This document shows positions 14,005 through 50,678 of a stretch of 64,000 nucleotides of DNA, one piece after another. A program made the translations under genes and the position numbers. The notes beneath the pieces are model-generated. The model did not search any database. It had not been told where the DNA came from and saw only the letters and a list, made by a program, of their open reading frames with translations. Each line of letters starts with the position of its first letter. Within the stretch, counting starts at the first letter, position 1. The DNA is from Squalus acanthias. Lineage: Eukaryota. The stretch lies in assembly GCA_030390025.1 (NCBI GenBank), contig CM059432.1:82524001-82588000 (forward strand). Reading direction: 5' to 3'.

Positions 14005-17000
14005 TAATTCTAACTTTCATATTGTACATATCTAAATAATGCTACAGGATTGATAATAAAATGAACTGAACCATTCCTGAAATAACGTATCAAGTCCCAT
14101 AGACTCATCTGCATCTTTTTATTGATGTTACTCATTTGGAGCATAAATAATAAATTGAAAATATAGAAAACTTAAAGTAAGAATGTTCCATTTGGTTCTT
14201 TGTAGGCTTTACATGAGAAGTATTAAAGGTATATAAATCCAAGTAATTAGAGTTGGATGTAAAGCTAAATTAATAACTTACATACCCATTGTTATATAAG
14301 TCTTCAGAGAAAATCAAATCTTTAATTATTTTCTCCTTTATGAATGATATCATAACTATTCTGCCAATTCCCACTGAACAAAATGCAGTCTTTCATATTA
14401 TTTCTAACTCTTTTACACCTAAGAATTTAGAGAAGCTGTAAAGTAGCAGAAAGAATTGGCCATTATTATGTTATAAAGAGTTAGGGCAAATAGCAGGTCA
14501 TGTGTAGGCAGTCAGAAGAGTTATAGCACTGCATCAGAATGAAATTTATGAGTTTGTTTATGAGTTGACAAGTTGAAACAGTTTGATCTCAGTACCCACC
14601 CACTACATCACATATGCTATATCACATGTTACTATAAAAATCCTTCAATCACCTCCTTTATGAAAACAAAGAAAAATTGTATTTATAAATCCAGCTACTC
14701 GGATGGACCAGAACAAGATAGCACAGTGTATCAGAACACTTTCTTTCCAAGTCCAAATCCAGCCCAGAATGATTGTATTAAAACTGCCCCCGCCCCACCG
14801 ACGCTGTGGTTAAATGTACCATTTAATGTGGCACTGAGACACGACTGTGAGGTTGCTAAATTTGCAGCTTAAAAGAACTAGTGGTTCCCAAGTACTGAAT
14901 ACACCTTTGTTATCTCCATGCTGGATTTCTCCAAAACTCCAAAACTGTGTTCCAAGCTCTGCACTGCACAAACCCCAACCCATTCAAAACTACCCTACCC
15001 ATGTCATATCCCATCCTAAGTTCAACTCCCCTACGATCTCTAGCCTCGATGACTTCCACTGGATCCTAATCCCCCAGTGCACTGAATTCGAAGTCCTTGT
15101 CATTGTTTACAACATCCTCCATGGTTTTACCCCATCCCACCTCTGCATCTTGCTCCAGCCCCCTCGCTCTACTCTTCCAGCTCTGGACTGGTTTACATTC
15201 AACCCTTCAGCCATGTTGGCGCACATTCTGGAACTCCCTTCCTGCACCTCTCCAACTTGCTACCTCTCTTCACATCTTCAAATTCCTCTTTAAAGCCTAT
15301 GGGGGCAAAATTGGGCTTGGTAGCGCCCATTCTTTTGAGCGCTACAAGGTCCGTTAAGGTTCCAAAATGGCATTCGCGGCGCTCACACGCACTTCTGACG
15401 TGAAGTGCACTGGACACCATATTGGTAAACGGGTTAGCGCACGTGCACCTAATGTCCGCCGGAAGTATGCAGAGCAGGCAGATCATGATGTCAATCATTG
15501 TGCAATGCTGATTTGACGCCAGCGCTGCCATTTTGGAGCTCCACACTCCATCCTTTACACTCTCTTAACCTCCCACAGCTGAACACGCATTCAACAGCAT
15601 GAAGGACCCCCACCAGTGCTATTTAAAGTAATCATCAACCATTACAGGTTAGGTGTTCGATTATTTCTTCTGGCTTTTGCTGAAATTCTATGTATTTTGG
15701 GTGCTTTTCTATACCTGTTAAAAGTTTCAATAATCTACAGGGAGTGGTCCAGTTGGTGCTGAAGTACTTTTTTGGTGACTTAAAGTTTGTGCACAAACCA
15801 ATTGCTTCCAGACATGGGTGGCCCAGTAGGGCATCCTCTTGGCATTCAGCATGGCTGAGAGAATAAGCAGAGGCCACCCAGAGCAGGACAAGCTGTTAGA
15901 AGAGGGAGGAGGAGGAGGAGGAGGGGGAGAAGGGCTCTGAGCAAGAGGCCATATCTGCAGAGAGTCTTTAGGGAACAGATCTGTTGGAGAACAGATTGCT
16001 GGAGTGCTGCGATGCCCTGGAAGCCTATTGCACACTGGTATCCAGAGCCATGATGGCAGCAATCTGAGATTGCATGACAGCAGTCTGAACTTCCACTTCA
16101 GCACTCAGACGTTGGGTGAACGCTGCTTGTGCTGCAATGGAAGCTGAGACATCAGCCATCAGACACTGCATCATGGTTGGCTCCATAGGTGCGTTGATGG
16201 AGGTGGAAAGGATGGGCTCCAAGCTCTGTGCAAAGCCCTGTGCCAAGTTAGTGCCGTACTCGTCCATGCTTCTTGACATTGAGCGCAGGCTTTCCAATGC
16301 ACCAAGCATTTGGCTGTGTACACCCATCAGCTTTCTTCTGTAGCCTGGCCCATCAAAGTCATCATCTGAGTCCTCTGCAGCAGAACTAGTGTGTAACCTC
16401 GTCCTCCGGTGAGCTGGCACCTGCAATATCCTTTCCCCCTGCCCTGGCTGCAGTGCACTTGTGTCCAGTGTCTCACCATGTGCAGATCACACAACTATCC
16501 TATCTAAATTATGCGCAGTGTCAGTATCTGAACTGGGGGCTGCGATGGTGAAATCGAGTGATGGTGTGTCTTCATCTTCACTGTCTTCTTGCTCTTCCTC
16601 CACTGCCTGGACAGGTTGCAGTTCATGGGTATCTGAAAGGAAAAAGGGACAAGGGTAGGGTTGTGGTGAGGGGAGAGGAGCATAAGAACATAAGAAATAG
16701 GAGCAAGAGTAGGCCATTTCGCCACTCGAGCCTGCTCCGCTATTCTATAAGATCATGGCTGATCTTCTATCTCAACTCCACTTTCCTGCACTATCCCCAT
16801 ATCCCTTGATTCCCTAATATCCAAAAATCTATCGATCTCTGTCTTGAATATACTCAACGACTAAGATTCCACAACCCTCTGGGGTAGAGAATTCCAAAGA
16901 TTCGCCACCCTCTGAGTGAAGAAATTTCTCCTCATCTCAGTCCTAAATGGTCGACCCCTTATTCTGAGACTGTGACCCCTGGTTCTAGACTCCCCAGCCA

Positions 17001-18405
17001 GGGGAAACATCCTCCCTGCATCTACCCTGTCAAGCCCTGTAAGAATTCTATATGTTTCAATGAGATCACCTCTCATTCTTCTAAACTCGAGAGAATATAG
17101 GCCTAGTCTACTCAATCTCTCCTCATAGGACAATCCCCCCATCCCAGAAATCAGTCTGGTGAACCTTCGTTGCCCTCCCTCTATGGCAAGTATATCCTTC
17201 CTTAGGTAAGGAGACCAAATCTGTACACATACTCCAAGTGTGGTCTCACCAGGGCCCTATATAATTGCAGTAAGATGTCTTTACTCTTATACTCAAATCC
17301 TCTTGTAATAAAGGCCAACATACCATTTGCTTCCCTAATTGCTTGCTGTACCTGCATATTAATTTTCAGTGATTCGTGTACAAGGACACCCAGGTCCCTC
17401 TAAACACCAACATTTCCCAATCTCTCACCATTTAAAAAATACTCTTGCTTTTCTATTTTTCCTACCAAAGTGGATAACTTCACATTTATCCACATAATAT
17501 TCCATTTGCCATGTTCTTGCCCACTCACTTAGCTTGTCTATATCCCCTTGAAGCCTCCTTGCATCCTCCTCACCACTTATATTCCCACCCAGCTTTGTAT
17601 TATCAGCAAACTTGGATATATTTCATTTGGTCCCCTCATCCAAATCATTGATATAGATTGTGAATAGCTGAGGCCCAAGCAATGATCCTTGAGGTACCCC
17701 ACTAGTTACAGCCTGCCAACCCGAAAATTACCCGTTTATTCCTACTCTCTGTGTTCTCTCCATTAACCAATCCTCAATCCATGCTACTATATTACCCCCA
17801 ATCCCATGAGCCCTAATTTTGTGTAATAACCTCTTGTGTGGCGCCTTATCGAATGCCTTCTGAAAATCCAAATACACCACATCCACTGGTTCTCCCTTAT
17901 CTATTCTGCTAGTTACAACCTCAAAAATCTCCAACAGATTTGTCAAACACGATTTCCCTTTCATAAATCCGTGTTGACTCCGCCCAATCCTATTATTATT
18001 TTCTAAGTGTCCTGTTACCACGTCTTTAATAATAGATTCCAGCATTTTCACTACTACTGATGTCAGGCTAACTGGTCTGTAGTTCCTCGCTTTCTCTCTC
18101 CCTCCTTTCTTAAATAGTGGGGTTACATTTGCTACCTTCCAATCTGCAGGAACCGTTCTAGAATCGATGGAATTTTGGAAAATGACAACCAATGCATCCA
18201 CTATCTCTGTAGCCACCTCTTTCAAAACGCTAGGATGTAGGCCATCAGGTCCAGGGGCTTTATTGGCTTTCAGTCCCATTAATTTCTCCAGTACTATTTT
18301 TTTACTAATACTAATTTCTTTCAGTTCCTCATTCTCGCTAGACCCTTGGTTCTCCACTATTTCCGGGAGGTTTTATGCGTCTTCTTCCGTGAAGACAGAC
18401 ACAAA

Positions 18406-21400
18406 GGACTCGATTTTTATTTCCGAGGCGGGTTGGAGTCGGGTTGCGTGGTGGGCAGGTTCCGGAGCCGCGTCCGGCGGGATCAGCTGATGATGTCCGA
18501 TTTTGATTTAATCAGCTTGTTGATTTCATTGGGGCGCGCTGGCCGGTCCAATGAGTGCGATCGGGTCGGCTGGCCGCCTCTGATGACATCATCATAGCAG
18601 CTGGCTTTAAAGCTGCCATTCAGCCTCAGCCTTTCTCTTCTGGATTCTAATACTCAGTGATATTGATCCATCCACAATGACTTCTTCCAGAGGCAAGGCA
18701 GCTCCTCGATTTAATGATGAGTCCCTCCATGCTCTTGTGGATGCTGTCAGAAGACGCAGGGAAATTCTCTTCCCTCCTGATGGCTGGAGGAAGCCTCCTC
18801 AGCAGACCAAGGCAGCCTGGCTGCGCATTGCTCAGGAGGTCAGCGCTAGGTCCATTTGTTCACGCTCATGGATCCGGTGCCGAAAAAGGTTTAATGATCT
18901 TGTGCGAACATCAAAAGTGAGTATCCCATCACACTTACCTTCAATCTGCTTCCCTTCTCTTCTCATCACCAGCACTCTGCGTTGTAAGTCTGCTCCTCCA
19001 CATACCATCTTACCCTTACTTCCCTTGCATCCTTTCCTATCCATCTCTGTCTCTGCACTGAATCACTTCAGCATCCTGCCTATGCACCCCTTAGACTCGC
19101 TCTCACTGTCATGCAGTGACAACTAACAACGCACAGGGAGCTAGCTTCCTCTTGGCACCTTACCCCATCTTCGTCTCCCTCAAAGCTTCTATGGTAGGGA
19201 TTATTCACACTCACTCCATCACTGTGGTTGAAACTCCGCTTGTGTCCCTCCTTGCAGGAAAAGATAGCCCACAATAAGAGGGAGAGAGCACTGACTGGAG
19301 GAGGTACACCTACCCTAGCAACATTGACAAGTGCTCAGGAGGCTGCATACGAAATTGCTGGAGGTGGCGAGGACCTGGAAGTGGGCGATGGAGAGACAGG
19401 CACACTAGAAGAAGCTGGTGACATAATAGAGTTTCATCCCTCTCATTAACATTTAGTGATCAACTGCAATGGCATATGATGTTCATAGAGAATTGCATTG
19501 TATCATCTGCTCAAAAGGATGTGTCTGCTACATCAGTATCAGATGTCTAAATCATGCCTTTACTCTCCCACAGTATCATCGACGCCCCCCTCCCCACGAT
19601 CCAGGACAAAGAGCCGACAACTCCTCAGAGGAACCTGAAGCCTCAGAGGGAGGAGCGTCACCAGGACTCAGCGCACCCAGCACCAGCGCAGCAACGCACA
19701 CCTCGGTGGGGCCCTCGCGAGTTAGAGTAGTGTTGCCACCTGGTCTATCACAGCGCACAAGTGAGCATCAGCAGATGGTGGAGACAGCGACAGCAGTGAA
19801 GAGTCCTCAGCGGAGGTCACAGCAATTTCCTAGCTCTGCTGAGCTGCATGTAGACGCTGTGCCTCTGCGGCCATCCAGAAAAAGAGCGTCTCATGATATA
19901 CAGGAACAAGTGCAGGTGTCTCTGGAAGGGTTTGCCTCCAGGGTTAGTGCGAGTGTGGATAGAATGGAGGAGTCCATCTCTAACATCAGCACTGCCGTGG
20001 TGGAGGCAATGGCACATGAACACACCACCATGGATAGGATGGCAACCTCCATGGATAGAATGGCACCCTCAGTGGAAAGGACGGCTACCGCCAAGGAGGA
20101 AATAAGTCACCAGAGTCAGGAAAACATGGTGACTGTTCAAAATAGAATGTCATCTCTGGAGGAGCGATGGGCAGCTATTGAGCAGAGAGACCAGAGCTTC
20201 ATGGACATCTTTGTGATGAGGACTGCCAGTGCAGATACGGGTCCTCATGGTCTCCCTGATGTGCAACAAGGTGCTCTCCAGCCACTTGCCAAAAATGAGG
20301 TGCAGCTGACCCATGAGAGGGATGTTGTTGGCAGGACACAAGGAAGTGTGGGTTCCTCTCAAAGTGCTCACACGACCATGCCACTGCGGAGCCCTCGGTC
20401 TGAGACCCACTTTGCGGAGACAACTGAGATGGCCGTTTCAGCCCCTGCACAGCCGCAGGAAGAGCAGACTGTTGAAGAGCCCTCCCAGGCTCCCAAATCC
20501 AGAGGATGCCCGCCAAAGGCGTCTAAGCAGGTGCAGCATCCTAGTCAGCAAGGTGCCTCTACATCTGCTGAAGCCACAGGGGAAGCACCATGTAGAAGCA
20601 CACGTAAGAGAAAGATTAAGCACCTATAGTCACAAGGGGACTCACGTGGGTGTTTTGTCTTTTTTTCCTGACTGTTCTTGGTTTATGATCTTTTTGTCAT
20701 GTGTAAAAGAAAAATTTTGGCAAACAGTTGATTGTGTGGCCTGTGTGTTCCGGGAAATGGCAAAAGTGCATTGAGGGCTCAGGGCGACTTGCTTTTGTAA
20801 CGCTGATGGTAAAAGTGATCGGAAATAACCAGGTATAGCAGAGATGATGTATGACGTTGGACAAATGTCGCTTACAATTACAGAGCCATATGGTAGCCAC
20901 CTATGGTTGAAGAGTAAGCTTATGCGAATGTGGCATGGCAGTGTGCATACCCTGCTTGACGGGCAACAGTGAACTGGAGGGATGCTGCATTGGTCACAAC
21001 AGGGCATGCAAGGCGCCCCTCGTCCTCCTCCTCCTCTTCCCAGGAAGATCTGCGCTGAGCCACGCGGCTGGTGCTCCTCCGATTATGAGGACCAGGATGA
21101 GAGAACATACATTTTTCCCATCCCCTTGCTAAAGATTTCATTTGAGGCAAGAAGCTTGCAAGTGCACAGTCGAAGTGGCCTGAAATTATTCCATTCAGGT
21201 CACACTGCAGATAGGTGTCGGCTTGAACAGTCACAAGGTCAGTAGATGTGCAAAATCGTATCCCATACCTACAACTGCAAAGTTGTTGCATTTGAATGAC
21301 AGCCATGTTTCAGGAGTGTTTTTAAAGCACTCCACCAATGAATACAAATCATGTCCTCCAGCAACTCGTCTCCTTGAACCTGGCCTGTTTCTGACAAGAC

Positions 21401-21649
21401 GGGAAACAGGAGCCAGAAGCACGAAAATTGGAAACCACTATCAAAATAGGATTAGCAAGGCAGTTAACAAGCTCTTAACTGCTTTAACTACCTGTCCCAC
21501 CGGTTCCAGTCGGGTCAGTTTGGGAGCGGCTGAACAGCCACTCACGAAAATCGGGTGGGGGCGGGTTGGGTGTCTGAAGCTATTTTTTCCGATTTTCGCT
21601 ACAGACCCGCCTCCAAACCTGCCTCCTCAGGGCTATTAAAATCGAGCCC
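18406..21649 (+). mobile_element. PIF/Harbinger element retaining its Myb/SANT-like gene, transposase almost entirely deleted
   Basis: TIR GGACTCGATTTT / AAAATCGAGCCC; AAA TSD at 18403-18405 and 21650-21652; only an acidic transposase-like C-terminal remnant on - near 20920-21050. Confidence 0.9.
18677..20629 (+). CDS. Harbinger Myb/SANT-like (MSANTD-type) protein, 3 exons: 18677-18916, 19258-19417, 19574-20629; probably one frameshift early in exon 3
   Basis: APRFNDESLHALVDAV...AWLRIAQEV...CRKRFNDL helix signature; GT-AG sites; 160-bp exon 2 as in the paralogous element; long open exon 3 with heptad-like repeats and a basic C-terminus (RSTRKRK). Confidence 0.75.
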
Positions 21650-22559
21650 AAAGTATTTGTTTAATTTCTCTGCCATTTCCTTATTCCCCATTATAATTTC
21701 TCCTGTCTCAGCCTGTAAGGGACCCACATTTACTTTCGCTAATCTTTTCCTTTTTACATACCTATAGAAGCTTTTACAGTCTGTTTTTATGTCTCTCGCC
21801 AGTTTATTCTCATATTCTAATTTCCCTTTCTTTACCAATTTCTTGGTCCTCCTTTGCTGAATTCTAAAATCCTCCCAATCCTCAGGCTTACTACGCTTTT
21901 TGGCAACATTATAAGCCTCTTCCTTTGATCTAATACTATCTTTAACTTCTCTTGTTAGCCACTTTTCCTGTGGGGTTTTTGTGCCTTAAAGGAATGTATA
22001 TTTGTTGTAAATTATGTATTAATTCTTTAAATGCTAGCCATTGCTTCTCTACTGTCATACCTTTTAATGTCATTTTCCAATCTACCTTAGCCAACTCGTC
22101 CCTCATACCTACATAGTTTGCTTTGTTTAGATTTAAGACCCTAGTTTCGGATTTAACTAAATCACTTTCAAACTCAATATAAAATTCTATCATATTATGG
22201 TCACTCTTCCCTGAAGGCCCCTTTACTACAAGGTTATTAATTAACCCTTTCTCGTTGCACAATACTCAATCTAAAATAGCCTGTTCCCTAGTTGGTTCCT
22301 CAACATGCTGATCTAGAAAACTATCTTGCATACATTCCATGAATTTGTCCTCCACACTACGACTGCAAATTTGGTTTGCCCAGTCTATATGTAGATTAAA
22401 GTCCCCCATGATTACTGTATTACCCTTGCTACATGCGCCTCTAATTTCCTGATTTATACTCTGCCCTACATTACAACTACTATTTGGGGGCCTAGAAACA
22501 ACTCCTACCAATGTTTTCTGCCCCTTGCTGTTTCTTAATTCCACCCAAACTGATTCTAA

Positions 22560-22665
22560 AGACGGGAGGAGGCTCGAATGGAGCATAAACACCAGCATGG
22601 ACTGGTTGGGCTGAATGGCCTGTTTCTGTGCCGTATATCCTATGTAATCCTATGTAATCTATGTA
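22560..22665 (+). mobile_element. Short CR1-type 3' tail inserted antisense into the CR1
   Basis: GGGCTGAATGGCCTGTTTCTGTG...CCTATGTAATCCTATGTAATCTATG interrupts the endonuclease-coding region. Confidence 0.7.
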
Positions 22666-24879
22666 CTTCTTGATTTTCGGAACTAAGATCCTTTCTCTCT
22701 ACTGTCTTTATCCCATCCTTTATTATCAGGGCTACCCCTCCTCCTTTTCCATTTCGCCTATCTCTTCCTGGAATATTTAGTTCCCAATCTTGGCCACATT
22801 GCAACCACGTCTCCGTAATGACACACCACCTGCACTGCCATCCTATATGACCTTGTTTTATTTAATTAAATTTAATTAAATTTGTAATTAGGTAACTTAG
22901 TTTACAGTGTAGTTTTTTGATGATGTACTTGATCTAGATTAAGTTATGGGTACTGAAATTAAATATCTACCTGTAACACAAAGCACTACAAGTAGTGTAG
23001 GCAAAAAGCAGCAACTCCTTCCCCCTCTTCTCCGAAATCCCAGAGAAAATAAGAAGTGCATGCTTACACCAACTTGTAAGTCAGAAGAGACTATGGGATG
23101 AGGGGGATGTGAGAAGGAGGATTAGGCATGAGGATACCATCATCTTCAATGGCTTCAGCCCCGTTGGTGGCCACGGCCTTAGCAATGGCCCTTCACACAA
23201 TGGCCAGCAACGCTGCCTCCATGGGGGTTAGAACATGCAGGCGTGCCTCTCCCCCTTCGGCTAGTTCCTGCTGCCTCTGGTTGTGTGCCACCTTCTCCTA
23301 CAAGAGAGAGTGAAGTGTTTCAGTGAGCGTCGTGCAATATGTTTGGGTAATGTGGCTGTTATGGTGGAATAGCTGGCAGTGTGTGCAAGCTGTGAGATGT
23401 GGATGTGAGACTTACAACAGTGCTAAGTGTGCAAGGGTGAGGTGAAGTATATGAATGTTATGTATGAGTCCTGATTGATAGAGATTCTTGGTAGGTGAGT
23501 GATGGGGGTGTGGTGAATTGAGCAGTGTCTGAGGCTAGTGGTGCAGTTGGTAGGATATGACATTTGAAGATGTATTCACTGACCTTGACCACTCGTGTGA
23601 GGTCATTAAACTTCTTGGGGCACTGCATCCAGGTACTTGGTGCTAAATTCCTAGTATTACCCTCCGTGGCTATCTGTTCCCACTGCCTTCTCATCGTGTC
23701 TCTGGAGGCCTCCTGCCCCCCTGAGGATACAGGCCATCTCTCCTCCTTTCCACCTCCTCTACCAAGACCTCCAATGCAGCGTCCAAAAACCTGGGTGTCC
23801 ACTCTCTCCCATGGTCAGTCATTCTTCGCTCTTTCCCAGGTCAGATTCAGTTGCAGAACTACTCCCACCACATTCTCCAGCCACAATGCACCTCCCCTTT
23901 AAGAGGTGCAGGCTAGCTTTAAGTATTGCAGGCTAGCTTTAAGTAGTGCAAGTTAGTAACGATATTGGGCCGCCTGCTGATGCGTGCAGCCAATGAACAG
24001 TGCAGGTAGCGCTGGCTGTACACAGAAATCATTATAATGAGCAGGCAGCACGAAGTTGGCATGCTGCCTGCATTACACTGAACGGGCGCAGGTTAATCGC
24101 GCATTGCGATCCCCACGCCCGTTTTCGGGGGCTATCCAATTTAACCCCCTACGTCTTTGACCATGCCTTTGATTACCTCCATTAAATTTCCTACTATTCC
24201 TCCTGTCATTCTTACTTCCGTGAAGTGCCTTGGGGTCTTTACTATGTTAAAGGCACTATATAAATGCAAGCTGTTGTTGAATTTACCATTCGTAATTTGG
24301 TGGATGAAGTGTTGCTACAAATGGTCTCAAAATTGGCAAGTAGCGATGGAAAAATGATCAGCATTACTGCTCCTGCAGCACTATTCAGTGACCCTTGCTG
24401 GAAGTCCACATATTTAGATGCTGGGTGAAGAGATATTTGGGCTCATATATGATGTCAAGTAGCTTGCCAGTACTCGCTATCCAGACACACACACGTGAAG
24501 ACTGGCATGATGTGTCAGTCTCATTCTTTTCAAAATGATGGAGCCCCTTACCTCCCTCACTTAGTCTTTGGTTCATCCTCCAATCTTCAGGCTTTTCAAA
24601 TCCAATCTTAGAGTCACCTAATCACTACTTCCTGATTTACCTCAGAATGTTTACGCAATATGGGCTTTGGTTTCTCAGTTTAAAAAAAGTGAAACTGCTT
24701 TGACCCATTTAACAGTAGGGTTTAGTCTACAGCACGAAACGAAGGGGCTGAAATTCCAACCCCACTTAGTTGTGGTTTTCGTGCCAGCAGTGTCACACCC
24801 ATAAGAAAGAAAGACTTGCATTTATGTAAAGTATCAGTGCCCTGACTGCTGGTGATAAGCAGGCTCAACAGTTTGTACA

Positions 24880-25275
24880 CAAGATATAAGATTGTGAGGG
24901 GGCTTGATCGGGTGGATGCGGGGAGGATGTTTCCACTGATGGGTGAGACTAGAACTAGGGGCATAATCTTAGAATAAGGGGCTGCCATTTCAAAACTGAG
25001 ATGAGGAGAAACTTCTTCACTCAGAGGGTAGTAAATCTATGGAATTTGCTACCTCAGAGAGCTGTGGAAGCTGCGACATTAAATAAATTTAAAACGGAGA
25101 TAGACAGTTTCCTAGCTGATAAGGGAATTAAGGGTTATGGGGAGCGGCAGCGGGCAGGGAAGTGGACGTGAGTCTAGGTTCGGATCAGCCATGATCCTAT
25201 TGAATGGCGGAGCAGGCCCGAGGGGCCATATGGCCTACTCCTGCTCCTACTTCTTATGTTCTTATGTTCTTATGT
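24880..25275 (+). mobile_element. CR1 3' fragment
   Basis: RTRGH and NFFTQR coding remnants; (TTCTTATG)3 tail. Confidence 0.9.
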
Positions 25276-25803
25276 AAGATGCAGCACCTGGGAGCAGACG
25301 GCTTGGCATTCAATTACCGGCTTCCAGTCGATCGGTGTGAATGTTTCTCAGGGAGAAGGGGGCTCCCACAATCGTACAACAATATACCAGTGTCAAGGCA
25401 GACAGACAGTGAAGACCTTCCATCAGCAAAAGAAGGAAAAGTGAATGATAAAGGTCAATTTTAACTTTTAGTCGGCTGGCCGGCAGCCCGCCCGTTCTGG
25501 TACCGAAGAGCCTGGAGCCGTTGTTGAGGCCCCAGCCTCATTTAAATAGAACTGCATCCCAATACAGCTGGCCGGATTCAGGCCAGTGCAATATCGGGAG
25601 GCCCAGAGGCTGCCCGGCTGGTATCAAGGCAAGTTCGGGGGGCGAGGGGGGGGGGGCGGGGGGAAGAGCCCAGAATGGCAGCAGCCCAGATTATTTTGTG
25701 GGGCCCGGAGGAGCATTCCTACTCTTTCATGGCTGCACAAAATAAATTAAAACTTACCTTTTTTTAGGGCCTCTTCAGTTCCAGTGGACTCCAGTTACAT
25801 TAT

Positions 25804-25982
25804 GGGGTAATTTTAAACTGACCCACCCGTCGAGAAACTGACAGGATCGGGTGGAACGTCAATATTACCCTCCATTGTCTTCAATGGAAAGTAAAATCGG
25901 GTGGGGTGGGGTGGGGTGTAAAACTAGCGTTGCACCCGATCTCATCAGTTTCCCGATGGGCAGATTAGGTTAAAATTGCCCC
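25804..25982. mobile_element. Palindromic Harbinger-like MITE
   Basis: TIR GGGGTAATTTTAA / TTAAAATTGCCCC with internally complementary arms; TSD ambiguous (TAT/ATA). Confidence 0.65.
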
Positions 25983-27866
25983 ATAGGAGTCCGCTGGAAT
26001 AACCAAGTAATTCCAAGGTCAAAAGGTTCAGAAGCCAAGGCAGCTAGGACAAAGACGCAGTTTGAAAGTCACAGAGTTTTTACTGGCACACAGCAGTGGC
26101 TTCGCATTCCTAGTGCAAAGCACAGGGACTTGTGAGACAAGAAAGTCCTGCCTTCATTTAAATATATTTTGTTAGTTTTGCTCTCCCAATCCTGATGAGA
26201 CAACAAAACCCTGGGAAATATGTTTCCAACGCACTTCTGGCACAAGGCCTGTGCTCCACAATTTCACCCCCTAAATTGCTAGGATGGAATGCTAAATGCC
26301 ACATAGCAGTGCGTGTTCTTTCTGTGATAGCTTTAGCTGAGTTCAAATGTCCTGTGTGTCAAGGGAATAAAACAATTCCCTTGGTATTGACAGAGCTACA
26401 AAATGTGCAATGAAGTACTTCCTAAAACAATCTAAGAATTAAAGCTGCTTTCATCCACCAAAAAAACATTAAAATTATACAACTTCCCCCCTCAAAAAGT
26501 GTATTTGCTCTCAAGGAGATAGTATGATCTAAACAAGTATTGCTGTTTATGTTGGAAACTATGAAACAAAAACAAGTTGGTTTGATTTGGCACAGGCTGC
26601 CATTAGCACTGAATCTCACTTTCCCCTCAGGCCCTATCAAAGGATTTTGTAGGAAGGATTAGAGCTGTATCTAAATCAAATGCTTGTGACCAACAGCTCC
26701 CACAGTAATGCCACTTAACCTTCCTCATTAATTATCAGTATTTTCCAGATGTCTCCTATTCTTCTGGTCACAACACGCTGTCATTGCTTCCTCAGGCCAC
26801 CTGAGTTACCATGACATTTTGTCCTGACAAGATTTTTGGACAATGCTCCGCCGATACAGGCAAAGAAGCTTGCAGGTTCGATCCCCAGTCTGAGTTTTAC
26901 CTGGGACACCGACCGGTACGCCTGCTGCAATTAACCTCAGTGCCTGTGTTTGGGGAAGATGAAAATGAGCCATGGCTCCACCTGGTGAAAGTATGCATGC
27001 ATGGGTGCTGAGCAAGGAACAGGCTCAACTGTGATGGCCATGTGACTGAATAGTCTGTGAACATTCAGCTACTTTTCAAATGCATAGAGCACTCTGTATT
27101 GTTGCCATGCTGATACATTGGTTCTGTGGGCCACTAAATGTGGCAAGCAACAAGCATCAATGCGACGCCCCTACCTGCTGTTTCTTCATGTCCACTCATA
27201 AGGTGGGGTTGGATGAGGTGATTAGGCAACACATATCATTTCTCAGATTCATCATTCTACCACATGTCTCTTTTTTTTCTGCTTTCAGGAAAAAGCTACA
27301 GAGAAGGTAGCAGGGCATGTAAACTGGAGAAGGTTCACTTCATGTAAGACCTTTGACTTTGATGAAGAGGGTGCTGGAGATTCTCGACCTGAAGGCAATG
27401 AAGGGATTGGAGGAACGAAGAGGTCAGAGGTCTATTCTCAAATCCATGGCAGGTATCATCCTTTATATCTCCATATTCACTCATTCATTCACTCCCTCAC
27501 ACATCTGAGTCTGAGTGAGCGGACTACCTGTGGGAGGAATGGAGTCGGAGACCGGGGATAAAGGCAGCACGGAGCAGAGACCTGGGAGTCTGAGCGAGCG
27601 GACTACCTGCAAGGGAGACAGTCGGCAAGCGACACAACAAAGGAATTATGTCAGAATTCAAAGGTGTCGCTGGCACAAGGGAGCTGAGAGGTGAGTATCG
27701 GGTGAGTATTTGTGGTAAGTTTTTTTTGTTCTGTTTTCAGTGTATTTCTGCTAAGTAGTTCATAGCCTATCTAACAGAGGGAGGTGCTGATTGGTGGGTA
27801 GCTGTTGAGTGTTTCTTGTTAAGTTTATTTCTGCTAAATTACCTCCATAGTCTGGTAAATAGAGGC

Positions 27867-28818
27867 ATGGTAGGGCAGCTCAGTCCCGTGATTTGCACAT
27901 CCTGTGCCATGTGGGATATCCTGGATGCTTCTTGCAGCCTGGACAACCACGTGTGCAGGAAGTGTCGCCAACTGCAGCAACTCGAGCTCCGGGTTTTGGA
28001 CCTTGAGCGGCAGCTGGAGTCACTACAGTGCATCCGCGAGGCTGAGAAATACTTGGAAAGCACGTTCTAGAAGTGGTCACCCCGCAGCCTCAGAATGTGC
28101 AGGCAGAGAGGGAATGGGTGACCACCAGACAGAGAAGGAGGACCAGGCAGGTAGGGCAGGAATTCCCAGAGTGCATCTCGCTCGCTAACCGGTTCACAGT
28201 TCTGAAAACTGGTGGGGGGTGATGGCTCCTCTGGGGAGAGCAGCCAGAGCCAAGGCCATGGCACCACAGGTGGCTCAGCTGCACAGCGGGGGGGGGAAGA
28301 AGAGTGGAAGAGCAATAGTGGTAGGGGATTCACTGGTATGGGGAACAGATAGGCGTTTCTGCAGACGCAGACGTGACTCCAGGATGGTATGTTGCCTCCC
28401 TGGTGCCAGGGTCAAGGATGTCACTGAGCGGCTGCAGGACACTCTGAGGAGGGAGGGTGAACAGCCAGAGGTCATTGTCCATATCGGTACCAACGACATA
28501 GGCAGAAAGAGGGATGAGGTCCTGCAGGCAGACTATAGGGAGCTAGGAAAGAGATTAAAAAGCAGGACCTCAAAGGTAGTAATCTCTGGATTACTCCCGG
28601 TGCCACGTGCTAGTGAGTACAGGAATAGGAGGATAGAACAGATGAATGCGTGGCTGGAGAGATGGTGCAGGAGGGAGGGCTTTAGATTCCTGAGGCATTG
28701 GGACCATTTCTGGGGATGGTGGGACATGTACAAGCAGGACGGGTTATACCTCAACAGAGCTGGGGCTAATATTCTCGCGGGGAGGTTTACTAGTGCTGTT
28801 GGGGAGGGTTTAAACTAG
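27867..28818 (+). pseudogene. CR1 ORF1: zinc-finger/leucine-zipper plus SGNH esterase-like domain, frameshifted
   Basis: CTSC...CRKC followed by LELRVLDLERQL; VVGDS, HIGTND and DGLYLN esterase-like blocks. Confidence 0.85.
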
Positions 28819-28845
28819 CTTGGCAGGGGGCACTAGCATGTAGGA

Positions 28846-30594
28846 GTGGAGGGGAGGAATGGGGTGTATGGAAACATAAAAGGGAACCCAAAAATCTTCT
28901 ACCGGCATGTAAACAGAAAGCGGGTAATAAGAGGCGGGGTGGGGCCTATTAGGGACAAAGAAGGTGATATATACTTAGAGGCACAGGGCAAGGCTAGAAT
29001 ACTCGATGAGTACTTTGTATCGGTGTTTACTAAGGAGGTGGATGCTGACAAAATATCGGTAGAAGTGGAAAAGGTAGAAGCAATGGAAGGCATGACAATT
29101 GATAGACAGGATGTACTAGAAAGACTGGGTATGCTTAGAGTGGATAAGTCGCCTGGTCCTGATGGCTTGCATCCCAGGTTGCTAAGGGAACTGGGGGAGG
29201 AGATAGCAGAAGGGCTTGCCATAATTTTCCAATCTTCCCTAGATGCGGGGGAGGTGCCTGAGGATTGGAAAGTGGCAAATGTGACGCCATTGTTCAAGAA
29301 AGGGTGTAAGGACAATCCTAGTAACTACAGGCCGGTCAGTTTAACATCAGTGGTAGGTAAAGTTTTAGAAACAATAATCAAGGAAGAAATAAATGTGCAC
29401 TTGGAGAGGTTTAAGCTAATTAAGGAGAGACAACACGGATTTGTAAAAGGCAGATCGTGTTTGACTAATCTAATTGAATTTTTTGATGAAGTAACAGGGA
29501 GGATTGATGAAGGGAATGCAATGGATGTTGTCTACATGGATTTTAGGAAGGCGTTTGACAAAGTACCACATAGAAGGCTGGTTAACAAAATTGAGGCTCA
29601 TGGAATAGGTGGATCAGTGGCAGCTTGGATAAGGAATTGGCTTAAGGACAGAAAACAGCGAGTTGTGGTAAATGGCTGTTTTTCAGACTGGAGGATGGTA
29701 GACAGTGGTGTTCCCCAAGGGTCAGTGCTGGGGCCACTGCTTTTGTTGATATATATAAATGACCTGGATATTGGAATACAGAGTAGAATTTCAAAATTTG
29801 CTGATGACACCAAACTTGGGGGTGTGGCAAACAGTGATGATGATACCAATTGACTGCAACAGGACATAGCAATGCTAGCAGAATGGGTAGACAAGTGGCA
29901 GATGGAATTTAATACAGAGAAGTGTGAGGTGATGCATTTTGGCAGAAGGAACAGGGAGAGGCAATATACACTTAATGGCACAGTTTTAAAGAGTGTGCAG
30001 GGACAGAAGGACCTGGGAGTTAATATGCTTAGGTCCCTGAAGGTGGTGGGACATATTAAGAGAGTGGTTAGCAAAGCATATGGGATCTTTGGCTTCATAA
30101 ATAGAGGTATTCAGTACAAAAGTAGAGAAGTTATGCTGAACCTTTATAAAGCGCTGGTTAGGCCACAACTGGAGTATTGCGTCCAGTTCTGGTCACCACA
30201 ATTTAGGAAGGATGTGAAGGAACTTGAGAGGGTGCAGAGGAGATTTACCAGAATGGTCCCAGGAATGGGGGATCTTAGCTACAAGGACAGGTTGAAGAAG
30301 CTGGATTTGTTTTCATTAGAGCAAAGGAGGTTGAGGGGTGATTTGATAGAGGTGTACAAGATTCTGACAGGTTTGGATAAGCTAGACGGGGAAAGGCTGT
30401 TCCCACTAGTTGGTGGTACAAGGACTAGGGGACACAGATTTAAGGTTTTGGGAAAGAGATACAGGGGGGATGTGAGGAAAAACTTTTTTACGCAGCGAGT
30501 GGTGAGGACCTGGAACTCGCTGACGACGGAAGTGGTGGAAGCGGAGACACTCAATGTTTTCAAGGGGAGATGGGATAGGCACTTGAGGAAATAA
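28846..30594 (+). pseudogene. CR1 ORF2 reverse transcriptase, one internal stop at 29851-29853
   Basis: [32 protein letters not shown] and KFADD motifs. Confidence 0.9.
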
Positions 30595-31295
30595 ACTTGC
30601 AGGGCTATGGGGATAGAGCGGGGGAATGGGACTGACTGGATTGCTCTACAGAGAGCTGAGACGGACTCAATGGGCCAAATGGCCGCCTTCTGTGCCGTTA
30701 TGACTCTATGACATAGGCATGTACTGCAATACTGCAGCATAACACACTTTTGCCAGGGAAGTGTTGTTTCAAGGGTGTCTTACTGACAGCATTCTAAAAT
30801 ATGCTCCTTTGCTGCCCTAGAGAAGCCCAATGTTATATTAATCTTAATGGACAAAAAATCATTAGGACAAGATCCACAATTTACCGATGCGTGTTCTTCA
30901 CGGACAAGGCTCTGCGTCAGGAGTACAATATCAGAAAATTGGCCCTATAACGATGGCTCAATCCTCTGTATACTGCACCAGATTCATAACTCCCTTGCAG
31001 AGAGGACAGATAGGAGGCGGTTTTCAAGTAGCACCTAAATGGGCACAAAGTGGCCAGGGTGTCTGCTATGCCTGCTCAAACACGCCGACGTGAGGTAGGT
31101 TCCACTTGAGCTGTGTGCATTTCCATAGTGAGAGGGAGCTGGTTGCGTTACTCATGCTTGTAATTGGCAGCTCACTCATTGGTGGGTGTGGGATATCCGG
31201 TAGGGCTCCCGCGATTTAAAGTAAACCTACACCTCTTATAGGGGAGGTGCATTTAGTGAATGGTGAATGACAGAGGTAGTGCCGCTGAAAGCAAA

Positions 31296-31410
31296 ATGTC
31301 TGCTGCTAAAGCCCCTCGTTTCTCGGACAGTGCCGTGGAAATCTTGGTGGAGGAGGTGACCAGGAGGAAGGAGGTGTTGTTCACTACAGATGGGTGCAGA
31401 GTCCCCTGCC
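31296..31410 (+). pseudogene. 5' part of a Harbinger Myb/SANT-like gene
   Basis: MSAAKAPRFSDSAVEILVEEVTRRKEVLF is homologous to 18677; truncated; convergent with the transposase at 36378-37450. Confidence 0.7.
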
Positions 31411-31471
31411 AGACTGTTGAGGCGCAGCCCCATGCAAGGGGCAGTGGACCCATGGGGGAGGCTCTTCCTGT

Positions 31472-32248
31472 CCTTTTTTTATTTAATTTTTTATTCATTT
31501 ATGAGATGTGGGTGTCGCTGGCAAGGCCAGCATTTATTGCCCATCCCTAATTGCCCTTGAGAAGGTGGTGGTGAGCCGCCTCTTGAAACGCTGCGGTCCG
31601 TGTGGTGAAGGTACTCCCACAGTGCTGTTAGGTGGGGAGTTCCAGGATTTTGACCCAGCGACGTTGAAGCATCGGCGATATACTTCTAAGTCAGGATGGT
31701 GTGTGACTTGGAGGGGAACTTGGAGGTGGTGGTGTTCCCATGCCTCTGCTGCCCTTGTCCTTCTAGGTGGAAGAGGTCACGGGTTTGGGAGGTGCTGCCG
31801 AAGAAGCCTTGGTGAGTTGCTGCAGTGCATCTTGTAGATGGTACACACTGCAGCCACGGTACACCGGTGGTGGAGGGAGTGAATGTTTAAGGTGGTGGAT
31901 GGGGTGCCAATCAAGCGGGCTGCTTTGTCCTGGATGGTGTCGAGCTTCTTGAGTGTTGTTGGAGCTGCACTCATCCAGGCAAGTGGAGAGTATTCCATCA
32001 CATGCCTTACTTGTGCCTTGTAGATGGTGGAAAGGCTTTGGGGAGTCAGGAGGTGAGATACTCTCCGCAGAATACCTAGCCTCTGACCTGCTCTTGTTGC
32101 CACAGTATTTATGTGCCTGGTCCAGTTAAGTTTCTGGTCAATGGTGACCTCCAGGATGTTGATGGGGGATTCGGTGATGGTAATACCGTTGAATGTCAAG
32201 GGGAGGTGGTTAGACTCTCGCTTGTTGGAGATAGTCATTGCCTGGCAC
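31472..32248 (-). mobile_element. 3' fragment of the tRNA-headed LINE family
   Basis: Closely similar to 37974-38550, including the polyA-terminated tail. Confidence 0.85.
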
Positions 32249-32309
32249 GTTTTTGATTTGATTTGATTGAAAGTCCCATGCTAGTGTTTGGGTTAAGTGC
32301 AGTCCTAAG

Positions 32310-35300
32310 AATAACCTTGTAGTAAAGGAGCCTCTGGGGAATAGTGATCATAATATGATAGAATTTTATGTTGAGTTTGAGAGTGATTTAGTTAAGTCCG
32401 AAACTAGGGTCCTAAACCTGAACAAAGCAAACTACGTAGGTATTACAGGTGAGTTGGCTAAGGTAGGTTGGGAAACTAGATTAAAAGCAATGGCAAACAT
32501 TTAAAGAAATAATTCATAATTCGCAACGAATATACATTCCCTTAAGGAATAAAAACACCATGGGAAAAATGGTCCAACCCTGGCGACCAAGAGAAATTAA
32601 AGATAGTGTTAGATTAAAGGAAGAGGCTTATAATGTTGCCAAAAATAGTAAGCCTGAGGATTGGGAGGATTTTAGAATTCAGCAAAGGAGGACCAAGAAA
32701 TTCATAAAGAAAGGGAAAATAGAACGAGAGTAAACTAGCGAGAGTCATAAAAACAGACTGTAAAAGTTTCTATAGGTATGTAAGAAGGAAAAGATTAGCA
32801 AAAGTAAGCGTAGGTCCCTTATAGGCTGAGACAGGAGAAATTATAATGGGGAATAAGGAAATGGCAGGGAAATTAAACAAATACTTTGGGGGCAATTTTA
32901 CCAGCACTCAGAGTGCAGGTTTGGAGGCGGGTCCGCCATCAAAATCACAAAGGGTCTGTCATCCCTGAACAGACCCGACACCAATTTAGATACTTAAAAG
33001 CTTGTTAAAAGGTAGTTAAGCAGAATTTTCCCATGTACTTACCATTTTACCAGGTTTTTAACGAGGTTCCCAGAGAGCGGGGATCACGTCAGGTAAGTAT
33101 GTCGGGTTCTCAATGACTCTCCATTGCTGTGAATAGGTGACAGCTGCAAAAGTGGTATAAAACCTACCATTTCACAACTGTTCACTTCCCAATCTTTGAA
33201 GCTGGAGCCTTCAGGATTTGGAACCCACTTTTGAGGTTTATGCAGTTTAGAAGTGTTTGGAGTAAACTCTCTATCCAGTGTCACCTCCTTGGAGCAACCT
33301 CTCTCACCATTGACAGATCGCTTCTGTCATCTCAACTTCAGCTGCCATCTATTCCAGCAACATCGGTGCCCTTGAAAAAAATCTCACCTTGGTCCTCCGA
33401 ATCCCACCATGATCAGCCCCAACACGAACATCACCAGGCACACCAGCACCACCAACAACAATACCAACCTTCTCCGCAATCACCTGATGCTGCACACGAC
33501 ACAAGGCATCAGCACCCAACCACACTGCTGCCCAGGATGCCAGCGATGGCCTCACCATGGCCAGATTTACTTCACTTGACACTGTACACCCTGGCTGCCA
33601 CATGATGCGCCAGGTTGGCACCCGCCCACACCAGCACCATAAAGCATCCCTACAAAGTCCAAGCCATTCCTTTCATACTCGTCACCGTTGAGGGGGCGGA
33701 GGGTACCCTTATGTCTCACAATTCACTGCAATTCACTAAGCCACTTCCAACGGTGCACACAAATCTGTCCAAGAACGCAAAGTGTTGAAAATAAAGATTT
33801 CAATGTTTGACAGCACATTACCAGAAACTTCAAATGAACATTGGCTAAACCACCCAAGTACCTACTCTTGTGTGTTCTTAGTTGGTATGCTTGCAGTAGG
33901 ATGAGAGTGAGTGTGAGGGGTGGCTAGTGAGATGAGGAAGTGATAATGTAGATAGAGAGGGATGGGTGGAGGTGCAAGGTAAGTTGGTGTGAGTAAAGAT
34001 TTGCAGGTATAGGGTAGGGAAGGCAGACTGATGGGGATGTGATGAATGGCACAGCAGGATGAGGCTGAATGTAGCTTTGCAGTAACCTTTTGTGATCTAC
34101 TGAGATCATTGAAAGGTTTGCGCCACTGCAGCCAGGTCCTCCTGACAACATTCCTGCTTGTGCCCTCCTGTGCAATATGCAACCAGGCTGCGTTGGTCTC
34201 CTGGGGAGGTCTCTTCCGCCCATTGGAAGGGAAGAGAACCTCCCTGCGTATTGTGACTCCCTCCATAAGCATATGGAGCAAGTCATGGGAGAGTCTGGGT
34301 GCAGCCCTGCACCTTTGTGCAGTACTTGTCAGTGTTTGCAGCACCTCAATGCTGTAGAACACTCACAGCACAACTGTCAATATGATTCTGGACATGGCCC
34401 CTTTAAGGAAACCGACTGATCATGCGTCATCAAATGACTTAATCAGACCCGCTTCCTTTTAATTAGCCGGGAACCTTGCAGGGCGGGCTTAACAAGCCCT
34501 ATCGATGGAAAACTCTTCTCACAGAGTGGGATGGAGCCGGGAGCGGGGTCGCCGTCTGGCACCTATCTCGGCCGCACTTAGCCTGCCTCAGTAGGCGAAA
34601 TCACGGCCTTTTTGTCTGTCTTCACGGAAGAAGAAGCAAAAAACCTCCCGGAAATAGTGCAGAACAAGGGTCCAGCGAAAATGAGGAACTGAAAGAAACT
34701 AATATTAGTGAAAAAATTTATGGGACTGAAAGCCGATAAATCCCCTGGACCTGATGGCCTTCATCCTAGTGTTTTAAAAGAGATGGCTATAGAGATAGTG
34801 GATGCATTGGCTGTCATTTTCCAAAATTCCATAAATTCTAGAACGGTTCCTGCGGATTGGAAGGTAGCAAATGTAACCCCACTATTTAAGAAAGGAGGGA
34901 GAGAGAAAACAGGGAGCTACAGACCAATTAGCCTGACATCAGTAGTAGGGAAAATGCTAGAATCTATTAAGGACGTGGTAACAGGGCACTTGAAAATAAT
35001 AATAGGATTGGGCAGAGTCAACACGGATTTATGAAAGGGAAATCGTGTTTGACAAATCTGTTGGAGTTTTTTGAGGTTGTAACTTGCAGGATAGATAAGG
35101 GGGAACCAGTGGATGTGGTGTATTTGGATTTTCAGAAGGCATTCGCTAAGGTGCCACACAAGAGTTTATTAAGCAAAATTAGGGCTCATGGGATTGGGGT
35201 AATATACTAGCATGGATTGAGTATTGGTTAACGGACAGAAAACTGAGAGTAGGAATAAATGGGTCATTTTTGGGTTGGCAGGCTGTGACGACTGAGGTAC

Positions 35301-36315
35301 CGCAAGGATCAGTGTTTGGGCCTCAGTTATTCACAATCTATATCAATGATTTGGATGAGGGGACCAAATGTAATATATCCAAGTTTGCTGATAATACAAA
35401 GCTGGGTGGGAATGTAAGTTGTGAGGAGGATGCAAAGAGGTTTCAAAGGGATATAGACAAGCTAAGTGAGTGAGCAAGAACATGGCAAATGGAATATAAT
35501 GTGGAGAAATGTGAAGTTATCCACTTTGGTAGGAAAAATAGAAAAGCAGAGTATTTTTTAAACGGTGAGAGATTGGGAAATGTTGGTGTTCAGAAGGACC
35601 TGAGTGTCCTTGTACACGAATCACAGAAAGTTAACATGCAGGTACAGCAAGCAATTAGGAAAGCAAATGGAATGTTGGCCATTATTACATGAGGATTTGA
35701 GTATAAGAGTAAAGATGTCTTACTGCAAATATATAGGGCCCTGGTGAGACCACACCTGGAGTATTGTGTACAGTTTTAGTCTCCTTACCTAAGGAAGGCT
35801 ATACTTGCCATAGAGGGAGTGCAACGAAGGTTCACCAGACTGATTTCTGGGATGGGGGGATTGTCCTATGAGGAGAGATTGAGTAGACTAGGCCTATATT
35901 CTCTAGAGTTTAGAAAAATGAGAGGTGATCTCATTGAAACATACAAACTTCTTACAGAACTTGACCGGGTAAATGCAGGGAGGATGTTTCCCCTGGCTGG
36001 GGAGTCTAGAACCAGGGGTCACAGTCTCAGAATAAGGGGTCGGCCATTTAGGACTGAGTTGAGGAGAAATTTCTTCACTCAGAGGGTTGTGAATCTTTGG
36101 CATTCTCTACCCTAGAGGGCTGTGGATGCTCAGTCGTTGAGTACATTCAAGACAGAGATCGATAGATTTTTGGATATTAAGGGAATCAAGGGATATGGGG
36201 ATAGTGCAGGAAACTGGAGTTGAGGTAGAAGATCAGCCATGATCTTATTGAATGGCGGAGCAGGCTCGAGGGGCCGAATAGCCTACTCCTGCTCCTATTT
36301 CTTATGTTCTTATGT
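32310..36315 (+). mobile_element. CR1 LINE (same subfamily as 16681-22828), split by the Harbinger at 32888-34608
   Basis: SDHN EN remnant, RT motifs and TTCTTATGTTCTTATG tail; high similarity to the minus-strand copy. Confidence 0.95.
32888..34608 (-). mobile_element. 1.7-kb non-autonomous Harbinger element carrying Myb-like exon 1
   Basis: TTT TSD at 32885-32887 and 34609-34611; imperfect TIR GGGGGCAATTTT / GAAATCACGGCC; APRLSHDLLHML...WLQWRKPFNDL on -; core shared with 54230-55909. Confidence 0.85.
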
Positions 36316-36377: not shown

Positions 36378-37450
36378 TCAATGACGTGCTGTAGAAGCGT
36401 TCTTGCGGCTGGCAGGACCCTGTTCTTCCACGTCATCCTCTGTATCTTCCTGTTCTTCATGCTCCTCTACCTCCCTGTCTTCCTCTGTAGGTAACTCCAT
36501 GGGTTGGCCACTTTGCATGGCAAAGTTGTGCAGCATGCAGCACAAAACGGTGATCCCAGAGATTCTCTTGGGGCTGTACTGCAGGCCACCTTCTGACCTA
36601 TCCTGGCAGCAGATGCATTGCTTGAGAATGCCAATGGTTTGCTCTATCAGGGCTCGGGTGAATACATGGCTATGATTGTATCTCATCTCAGCATCTGTGC
36701 ATGGGTTCCTGACAGGTGTTATGAGCCCTGTCTGCAGGAGATAGCCCTTGTCTCCAAGTAGTCAGATTTTATCCAGATGGTGTGGATAAAAGAAATGCAG
36801 AATTGACAACTGGTGCAGAATGAAGGTATCATGACATCTGCCAGGATACTTGGCACAGACCTGTATGATGCATGCATGTCATCTCACACCAACTACAATT
36901 TCAGCAAGTGTTCGCATCTTTCCAGGGTCTTTTGTTGGGAGCATGTACGGCTATGTGTGTACAGGCAATGATGCCCTGCACCTTGGGGAAGTCTGCAATC
37001 CTGGCAAATCCCATGCTTCTGTCATCCTGCCTCGTAGCCTTCATAGGGAAGGGGATGAATTTGTTGGCTCTGGTGAACAGCGTATCAGTCACCTGCTTGA
37101 TACAGGCATGCACAGAAGATTGTCTAATGTTGCTAATGTTACCTGCTGCAGCCTGGAATGACACCAATGTATAAAAATTAAGGGCCAGTTACTTTAAGAG
37201 CCACAGGCAAGGACGACTGTGACCTGGTGCTGGGCTACAGTTGGTGCTGCAGCAGGCGACATAGTTCTGTGATAGCCTCCCTGTTAGAACAAAGCCTCCT
37301 CACACATTGCTCCTCACTGAACAGCAGGTATGAAGTTCTTGAACTCTCTAATGGGGTAAGGCCTATTGCGAGCTCCTTCCTTCTGCCAATTCTCTCTGCA
37401 GCTGCAAGTCTCTTGGCTCTTGCCTGCTGCTCCTCCTCCTCTTTCAGCTA
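36378..37450 (-). pseudogene. HARBI1-like Harbinger DDE transposase, disabled
   Basis: GIIACTHIAV (first catalytic D position altered), CHDTFIL, LLGDKGY, YNHSHVFTRALIEQTIGILKQ and CCMLHNF, plus an acidic tail; stops and frameshifts. Confidence 0.9.
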
Positions 37451-50560: not shown

Positions 50561-50678
50561 AATCAAAGGCACGAACCAGTAGGTTATCCTCCACAGCACA
50601 ACTTATTGGAGCATTCTTACTCTGATCTACTTTGAGAACTTGAAGTTGGCCGATGGCTGCTGTACATTTGTCACTTAC

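What the first reader, a model, noticed from the sequence alone, without database searches (positions are those of the whole stretch)
18403..34611. Two different Harbinger elements inserted at the same nucleotide of two separate CR1 copies
Seen: in CR1 sense, both 18406-21649 and 32888-34608 sit in AAACAAATAC-TTT-[element]-TTT-(G/T)TGTCTGTCTTCAC, which is the Phe codon of KYFxSVFT. Both Myb genes are antisense to the CR1. The two CR1 hosts are one subfamily, but the inserts differ in length, TIR and interior, which argues against simple duplication. Inference: these are sequence-specific, orientation-biased DNA transposons using a very abundant LINE as a safe-harbour target. An alternative is that one CR1+Harbinger composite was copied and its interior later replaced; both inserts do share GCAGGTTTGGAGGCGGGTC at the same end.
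Basis: partly seen in the sequence, partly recalled or inferred. Interest (0 to 1): 0.82.

Follow-up and report, generated by a model that had tools for sequence, protein, structure and literature searches.

The report
Harbinger hot spot inside CR1 codon
Many different cut-and-paste (Harbinger-type) jumping genes have landed independently, in both directions, on the same base of a very common retrotransposon in this shark-like genome, likely because that spot is a near-ideal copy of the short landing motif they prefer everywhere rather than a chosen safe harbour.

Summary
There are 1,975 exact CR1-TTT-terminus junctions (control 1), and 34 of 100 listed copies of the site are occupied. Occupied CR1 copies are not one clade (p-AU 2e-10), so the insertions are independent. 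The safe-harbour and orientation readings fail. Only 25 of 641 ends of element 1's family sit here. Orientation is 13:12 and 44:44 in two families, and 33:18 in a mixed sample. Other repeat positions are hit as often. A motif learned from 127 other flanks (RGASWC-WWW-GWSTCY) ranks this codon first in 28 of 30 empty CR1 copies. It resembles the published 15-bp target of zebrafish Harbinger3_DR, with an unfixed A/T-rich core. This scan already reported such motif-driven hot spots elsewhere in this genome. New here: 15 of 200 junction triplets differ from TTT at 2-3 bases, against 0 of 100 empty sites. This likely reflects carry-over of the donor site's triplet.

The parts
18406..21649 (+). Element 1: non-autonomous Harbinger-type element, 12-bp terminal inverted repeats (11/12 matched), Myb gene kept, transposase core missing
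   Evidence: colinear with transposase-bearing copies L173/L189 except across their transposase region
18677..20629 (+). Myb/SANT gene of element 1; three exons predicted by eye from GT/AG sites (about 18677-18916, 19258-19417, 19574-20629)
   Evidence: PF13873 E 2.5e-9; ORFs; splice-like sites; splicing not tested
18403..18405 (-). 3-bp target duplication (TTT in CR1 sense), 3' side of host 1
21650..21652 (-). 3-bp target duplication (TTT in CR1 sense), 5' side of host 1
16681..22238 (-). CR1 host copy 1 (part shared with host 2), ORF2 interrupted at the Phe codon of KYFVSVFT
   Evidence: RVT_1 E 3e-15; 90.2% to host 2
32888..34608 (-). Element 2: non-autonomous Harbinger-type element of another family, imperfect termini (7/12 matched), Myb remnant at about 34329-34081 on the minus strand
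32885..32887 (+). 3-bp target duplication TTT, 5' side of host 2
34609..34611 (+). 3-bp target duplication TTT, 3' side of host 2
32310..36314 (+). CR1 host copy 2, ORF2 interrupted at the same codon
54230..55909 (-). Relative of element 2 (82% over 1287 bp) inserted away from the CR1 codon; flanks TGACAT-AAT and AAC, left arm fits the motif

Best explanation
Two non-autonomous Harbinger-type transposons sit at one CR1 nucleotide that about a third of this CR1 subfamily's copies also have occupied by unrelated inserts in both orientations, likely because the 15 bases around that codon are the best match in the CR1 to the palindromic target motif these elements prefer genome-wide. Shown: the hot spot, the independence of the insertions, the motif (half-site R-G/A-A-S-W-C, three A/T-rich central bases, mirror half-site) and that the motif ranks this codon first. 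Inferred from PIF/Harbinger biology: a dimeric transposase plus Myb protein, supplied in trans by 4.2-kb autonomous relatives with the same ends, reads the two half-sites and cuts with a 3-base stagger, so orientation is free. CR1 only supplies thousands of identical good sites. Inferred second step (about 0.7): the excised element carries 3-base overhangs from its old site, and at roughly one junction in nine these are kept in place of the target's triplet.
For: Hot spot: 1,975 left junctions, control 1; 1,554 right junctions; 34 of 100 listed sites occupied among 3,961. Independence: 16 clusters among 41 complete inserts, best pair 92%; tree of 39 occupied and 17 empty hosts needs 15 changes against 14.7 shuffled, one clade rejected at p-AU 2.4e-10. 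Motif: A at -7 84%, C at -4 70% in 129 collapsed flanks; same in a separate young family (142 flanks). The site ranks first in 28 of 30 empty copies. The better-scoring GTG variant makes up 79 of 100 occupied against 60 of 100 empty sites, p=0.005. Autonomous partners: L179 has a 417-aa open frame with PF13359 (E 5e-38) plus Myb. Triplets: 15/200 against 0/100, p=0.003; young family 11 of 61 mismatched against 2.4-4.8 expected, with 9 of 13 changes A<->T against a 10% background, p=6e-7.
Against: The mixed sample of 52 leans antisense, 33:18, p=0.049. The motif was trained on 127 flanks from two end types, and one training flank was a false terminus. Whether 34% occupancy exceeds what the motif alone predicts was not measured against equally scoring unique sites. 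The GTG/GTA contrast is confounded with CR1 subfamily age, and the two patterns fix different flanks. For carry-over: all changes pooled are not significant (35/200 against 11/100, p=0.17); the excess of A among changed bases at the CR1 site is not significant (p=0.10); nearest relatives did not carry the foreign triplet more than chance (3 against 3.1); three elements differ from TTT differently on both sides. Counts from search listings are by eye, from the first 100 rows (contig C1; C1-C9).
Confidence: 0.86

Rival explanations
1. The elements have evolved to home in on CR1 as a safe harbour, in a fixed orientation (first reader; Dada-like).
For: 34% occupancy; several of the largest hot spots are CR1 positions, 31 of 88 true ends; 33:18 lean in one sample.
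Against: 25 of 641 family ends at the site; 17 of 50 unbiased ends have a CR1 hit within 300 bases, close to the 22-34% CR1-group share reported for sharks and rays (PMC13343379); 13:12 and 44:44 orientation; a motif trained without the site predicts it; 0 of 142 flanks of the young family are at this codon.
Confidence: 0.05
2. One CR1+Harbinger composite was amplified and its interior later replaced.
For: Shared 19-mer at the same end of both inserts; hosts 90% identical.
Against: Occupied hosts are not a clade, and the two window hosts lie on different sides of a 100/99 branch; both orientations occur; the 19-mer is a clade-wide subterminal motif.
Confidence: 0.01
3. The motif sets the position, but selection raises occupancy, because inserts in dead LINE copies are harmless and are kept more often than inserts elsewhere.
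For: General expectation; occupancy is very high.
Against: The share of ends next to CR1 is about CR1's reported genome share. Not tested directly.
Confidence: 0.15
4. The mismatched triplets come from error-prone filling of the 3-base gaps after insertion, not from donor overhangs.
For: It gives the same one-sided, multi-base pattern; the parent-tracing test was blank.
Against: The changes are mostly A<->T, as expected if one A/T-rich triplet replaces another. mPing is reported to leave its donor with 3-base overhangs of the duplication (PMC4561436, PMC11254759).
Confidence: 0.25

Closest known systems
Harbinger3_DR / Harbinger3N_DR of zebrafish (Sinzelle et al. 2008, not held; seen as cited in passages of PMC3016246 and PMC2836001)
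   Same: Transposase plus Myb, 3-bp duplication, 15-bp palindromic target; its published half-sites (AAACAC / GTCTTT) fit the half-site found here.
   Different: The core is an unfixed A/T-rich triplet here (CWG 2 of 129) against CWG there. Protein relationship to Harbinger3_DR was not tested.
NuwaI / NuwaII groups of the PHIS superfamily (PMC4482050, results section read)
   Same: Termini start GG(G), two ORFs (DDE plus Myb/SANT), about 4.2-4.7 kb; NuwaII has C and G flanking the triplet (C at -4 in 70% here).
   Different: Neither CWG (2/129) nor TNA (19/129) nor TWA (13/129) describes the triplets.
TE-in-TE insertion hot spots in the human genome (PMC2836564, passages)
   Same: DNA transposons (MER1/hAT in MIR3) reuse single positions of another repeat in both orientations.
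   Different: Different superfamily. That paper says its hot spots were not fully predicted by known motifs; here the motif predicts the site. Per-site occupancy was not given in the passages read.
Dada target-specific DNA transposons (PMC3706591, passages)
   Same: DNA transposon found at one nucleotide of a multicopy sequence.
   Different: Dada copies are mostly in their target gene and lack terminal inverted repeats; here about 4% of a family is at the site, in both orientations.
Asymmetric duplications of piggyBac at non-TTAA sites (PMC8717057 passages, citing Li et al. 2013, not held) and donor TTA/TAA carried by mPing (PMC4561436, PMC11254759 passages)
   Same: Donor-derived overhang kept at one junction.
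   Different: Those are engineered assays. Here the signature is read from natural vertebrate Harbinger insertions, where the free core makes it visible.

Membership tests
PIF/Harbinger (PHIS) superfamily | DDE transposase of the PF13359 / HARBI1 type | tested here: met
   Absent from elements 1 and 2 but present in 7 complete or partial inserts with the same ends plus a fragment in L182; L179 PF13359 E 5e-38; closest proteins labelled HARBI1-like, from sharks and rays
PIF/Harbinger (PHIS) superfamily | Second ORF with Myb/SANT domain | tested here: met
   PF13873 in both elements
PIF/Harbinger (PHIS) superfamily | Short terminal inverted repeats starting with G | tested here: met
   element 2's are imperfect (7/12)
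PIF/Harbinger (PHIS) superfamily | 3-bp target duplication | tested here: met
   Known empty site has one TTT; 34 of 49 and 50 of 61 elements have identical triplets
PIF/Harbinger group in the narrow sense (Han et al. 2015) | TWA duplication | tested here: not met
   13 of 129
NuwaI | CWG duplication | tested here: not met
   2 of 129
NuwaII | C|TNA|G target | tested here: not met
   C at -4 in 70%, but TNA in only 19 of 129
Nuwa clade | Placement in the DDE-domain tree | not tested
   No reference Nuwa or Harbinger3_DR transposase was in hand
Target-specific DNA transposons (Dada-like) | Most copies in one multicopy target | tested here: not met
   25 of 641; 5 of 88; 0 of 142
Target-specific DNA transposons (Dada-like) | One orientation in the target | tested here: not met
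   13:12, 44:44, 33:18
CR1 LINE (host) | ORF2 reverse transcriptase and short-repeat 3' tail | tested here: met
   RVT_1; tail repeat family D12; the CR1 clade name rests on recall of these features, no tree against references

The most novel reading that the evidence does not exclude
Shark Harbingers form a PHIS lineage that reads only the two flanking half-sites and ignores the triplet it duplicates, and the thousands of insertions into one known CR1 triplet record the cutting chemistry in vivo: the element leaves with 3-base overhangs and writes its old site's triplet into about one junction in nine, making each jump a small mutagen and a tag of the donor site.
Probability: 0.6. Interest if true: 0.55.

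Novelty: new variant of a known kind. Interest (0 to 1): 0.36.

Why it matters
The hot spot is a clean, large example of a known rule (Harbinger's extended palindromic target), not a new targeting system. It has three uses. About a third of one CR1 subfamily is split at one codon, which affects repeat annotation and makes these insertions unsafe as shared-ancestry markers. The triplets fit none of the published PHIS duplication classes. And a known target with over a thousand natural insertions gives a direct read-out of junction repair that supports the staggered-cut model proposed from mPing. A young family with open transposase frames makes this testable.

Tried and rejected
Composite amplification: rejected. 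The shared 19-mer as a sign of interior replacement: rejected, it is clade-wide. Strong orientation bias: rejected; a mild lean is left open. Target mutated before insertion as the cause of odd triplets: rejected for multi-base cases, since 14 of 14 resolved have TTT on the other side (part paired by coordinates only). Tracing foreign triplets to nearest relatives: no signal, 3 against 3.1 expected (61 copies only). PDB sequence search with the transposase: no hit. The primary papers by Sinzelle 2008 and Li 2013 are not held. Nine literature searches found no report of shark Harbinger targets, of this CR1 site, or of mismatched Harbinger duplications; Repbase and most subscription papers were not searchable, and no supplements were opened. 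Rows dropped: 12 of 100 rows (false termini); 28 of 84 hosts with under 380 aligned bases; 19 of 80 loci without both ends; 13 of 52 inserts without a right junction; 4 of 29 rows and 12 of 100 not assigned to the site. Scripts ended in errors; 48 was rerun, and 77 had printed its results before failing.

Full report
Observation. The window is G000:C8:82524001-82588000 of a 3.7-Gb assembly. The hosts are 90.2% identical. The inserts share only a Myb stretch and a subterminal stretch. Both Myb genes (PF13873) are antisense to CR1.

What the inserts are. Neither encodes a transposase core. Among 52 other inserts at the same site, L171, L179, L196, L168, L177, L173 and L189 carry both a DDE transposase and a Myb gene facing each other; the complete ones are 2.6-4.3 kb. 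L179 has a 417-aa open frame, PF13359 E 5e-38. Its closest database proteins are HARBI1-like sequences of sharks and rays. Element 1 matches L173 and L189 on both sides of their transposase region, so it is read as a deletion derivative (inference).

The hot spot is real. CR1 flank + TTT + terminus start gives 1,975 exact matches, reversed control 1. The right junction gives 1,554 and the empty site 1,956. A pattern that fits empty and occupied sites equally gives 3,961 matches; 34 of the first 100 listed are occupied and one more is unclear (counted by eye).

The insertions are independent. The 41 complete inserts fall into 16 clusters at 80% identity and coverage; the closest pair is 92%. 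In a tree of 450-bp upstream CR1 flanks (39 occupied, 17 empty; 28 of 84 left out as too short) the label needs 15 changes against 14.7 for shuffles, and one clade is rejected at p-AU 2.4e-10. The 19-mer shared by the two inserts is in 35 of 52 inserts and 33 of 91 ends elsewhere.

Orientation. Element 1's family is 13 antisense to 12 sense (25 of 29 rows, assigned by a 10-base flank). A second family is 44:44, or 31:30 with an intact core. The mixed sample is 33 antisense, 18 sense, 1 unclear, p=0.049. Two antisense genes in the window are therefore unremarkable; a mild lean is not excluded.

Not CR1-specific. 25 of 641 ends of element 1's family are at this site. Of the 29 closest copies, 2 are here, both in the opposite orientation. 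An 82% relative of element 2 lies elsewhere in the window. For the commonest terminus (59,805 matches, control 108), 88 of 100 listed rows are true ends: 5 at this codon or its homologue, 14 at a CR1 codon reading EEDTKSLQRD, 6 at GFINRGIEYK, 6 in the CR1 tail and 6 at another repeat (by eye). 17 of 50 unbiased ends have a CR1 hit within 300 bases, near the 22-34% CR1-group share reported for sharks and rays (PMC13343379, passages).

The motif explains the site. 129 collapsed flanks give a half-site of A/G at -9, G/A at -8, A at -7 (84%), C/G at -6, A/T at -5, C at -4 (70%), then three A/T-rich bases. A separate young family gives the same. A matrix trained on 127 flanks without this site scores the codon 11.9 bits; none of about 64,000 window positions reaches 11, and the codon ranks first in 28 of 30 empty CR1 copies. 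The better variant GTG is enriched among occupied sites (79/100 against 60/100, p=0.005), though subfamily age may confound this. The published Harbinger3_DR target is AAACACCWGGTCTTT (PMC3016246, passages), and an extended target of 15 bp in vertebrates is described as a superfamily trait (PMC2836001, passages). The triplets here fit none of TWA (13/129), CWG (2/129), TNA (19/129) or ANT (20/129) of PMC4482050 (results section read).

A by-product: foreign triplets. Because the target is known to be TTT, junctions can be read directly. 15 of 100 left and 20 of 100 right junctions are not TTT, and 15 of these 200 differ at two or three bases. In 100 empty sites 11 differ, all at one base; p=0.003 for multi-base changes, p=0.17 for all changes. 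Of 29 elements with both sides resolved, 24 have TTT on the other side, 2 have the same variant twice and 3 differ on both sides (part paired by coordinates). In a young family (copies mostly 98-99% to their nearest relative) 11 of 61 duplications mismatch against 2.4-4.8 expected, and 9 of 13 changes are A<->T against 10% in the element body. Scaling by the genome-wide triplet mix gives about 0.12 per junction. mPing is proposed to excise by staggered cuts through the duplication, and donor TTA/TAA has been seen at new junctions (PMC4561436, PMC11254759, passages). piggyBac gives asymmetric duplications at non-canonical sites (PMC8717057, passages). Carry-over is therefore the likely cause (about 0.7). 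Error-prone gap filling is the rival, and tracing triplets to nearest relatives gave no signal.

Comparison and verdict. It works like Harbinger3_DR target choice and like the TE-in-TE hot spots of PMC2836564 (passages). It is not a Dada-type system (PMC3706591, passages). PMC9179366 (passages) found no Harbinger in elephant shark and asked for other cartilaginous fish to be checked. Nine searches found no paper on this site or on mismatched Harbinger duplications, within a library that lacks Repbase and most subscription papers. Earlier notes of this scan reached the same motif reading for satellites, CR1 tails and a Penelope repeat in this genome; a look-up for carry-over found nothing. I had reached the motif reading before those look-ups. 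Verdict: real and large hot spot, ordinary cause, relaxed core and a testable junction signature; new variant of a known kind; interest 0.36.

Noticed in passing
L201-L220, L307-L366 (G000, many contigs): Young Harbinger family of 4.1-4.4 kb with open transposase frames of 440-451 aa in many copies and nearest-copy identity mostly 98-99%; same flank motif, 0 of 142 flanks at the KYF codon; a candidate for reconstitution.
   Followed up: partly
rows; e.g. L239, L271, L279: A second CR1 codon (EEDTKSLQRD) holds 14 of 88 listed ends, more than the site studied; its occupancy was not measured.
   Followed up: partly
L221, L223-L226, L236, L237, L244, L245 (C1:0.2-4.4 Mb): A repeated unit, 98-99% identical and partly tandem at about 4.2 kb, contains a chance match to the terminus pattern; it looks like an LTR-retrotransposon protease region (by eye, not tested).
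   Followed up: no
L313, L321, L325 and flanks: In CR1 3' tails some young elements sit 8-10 bases from what looks like another element's terminus, i.e. neighbouring tail units appear to be hit in turn.
   Followed up: no
window 36378-36758 (-): Fragment of another Harbinger transposase (PF13359 E 8e-9), 56% identical to L179's, just after host 2's tail.
   Followed up: partly
window 60458-61146: Truncated further relative of element 2 (75%), cut by a CR1 copy.
   Followed up: no
window 50671-51603 (-): 310-aa open frame that reads like the first exon of an organic anion transporter (SLCO) host gene; name recalled, not tested.
   Followed up: no
window 595-1264 and 3600-4269: About 3-kb-spaced direct repeat, 92-95% identical.
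   Followed up: no
rows: 5 of 10 right junctions with multi-base foreign triplets are in the rarer GTA variant of the CR1 site, against 15 of 90 others; unexplained.
   Followed up: no
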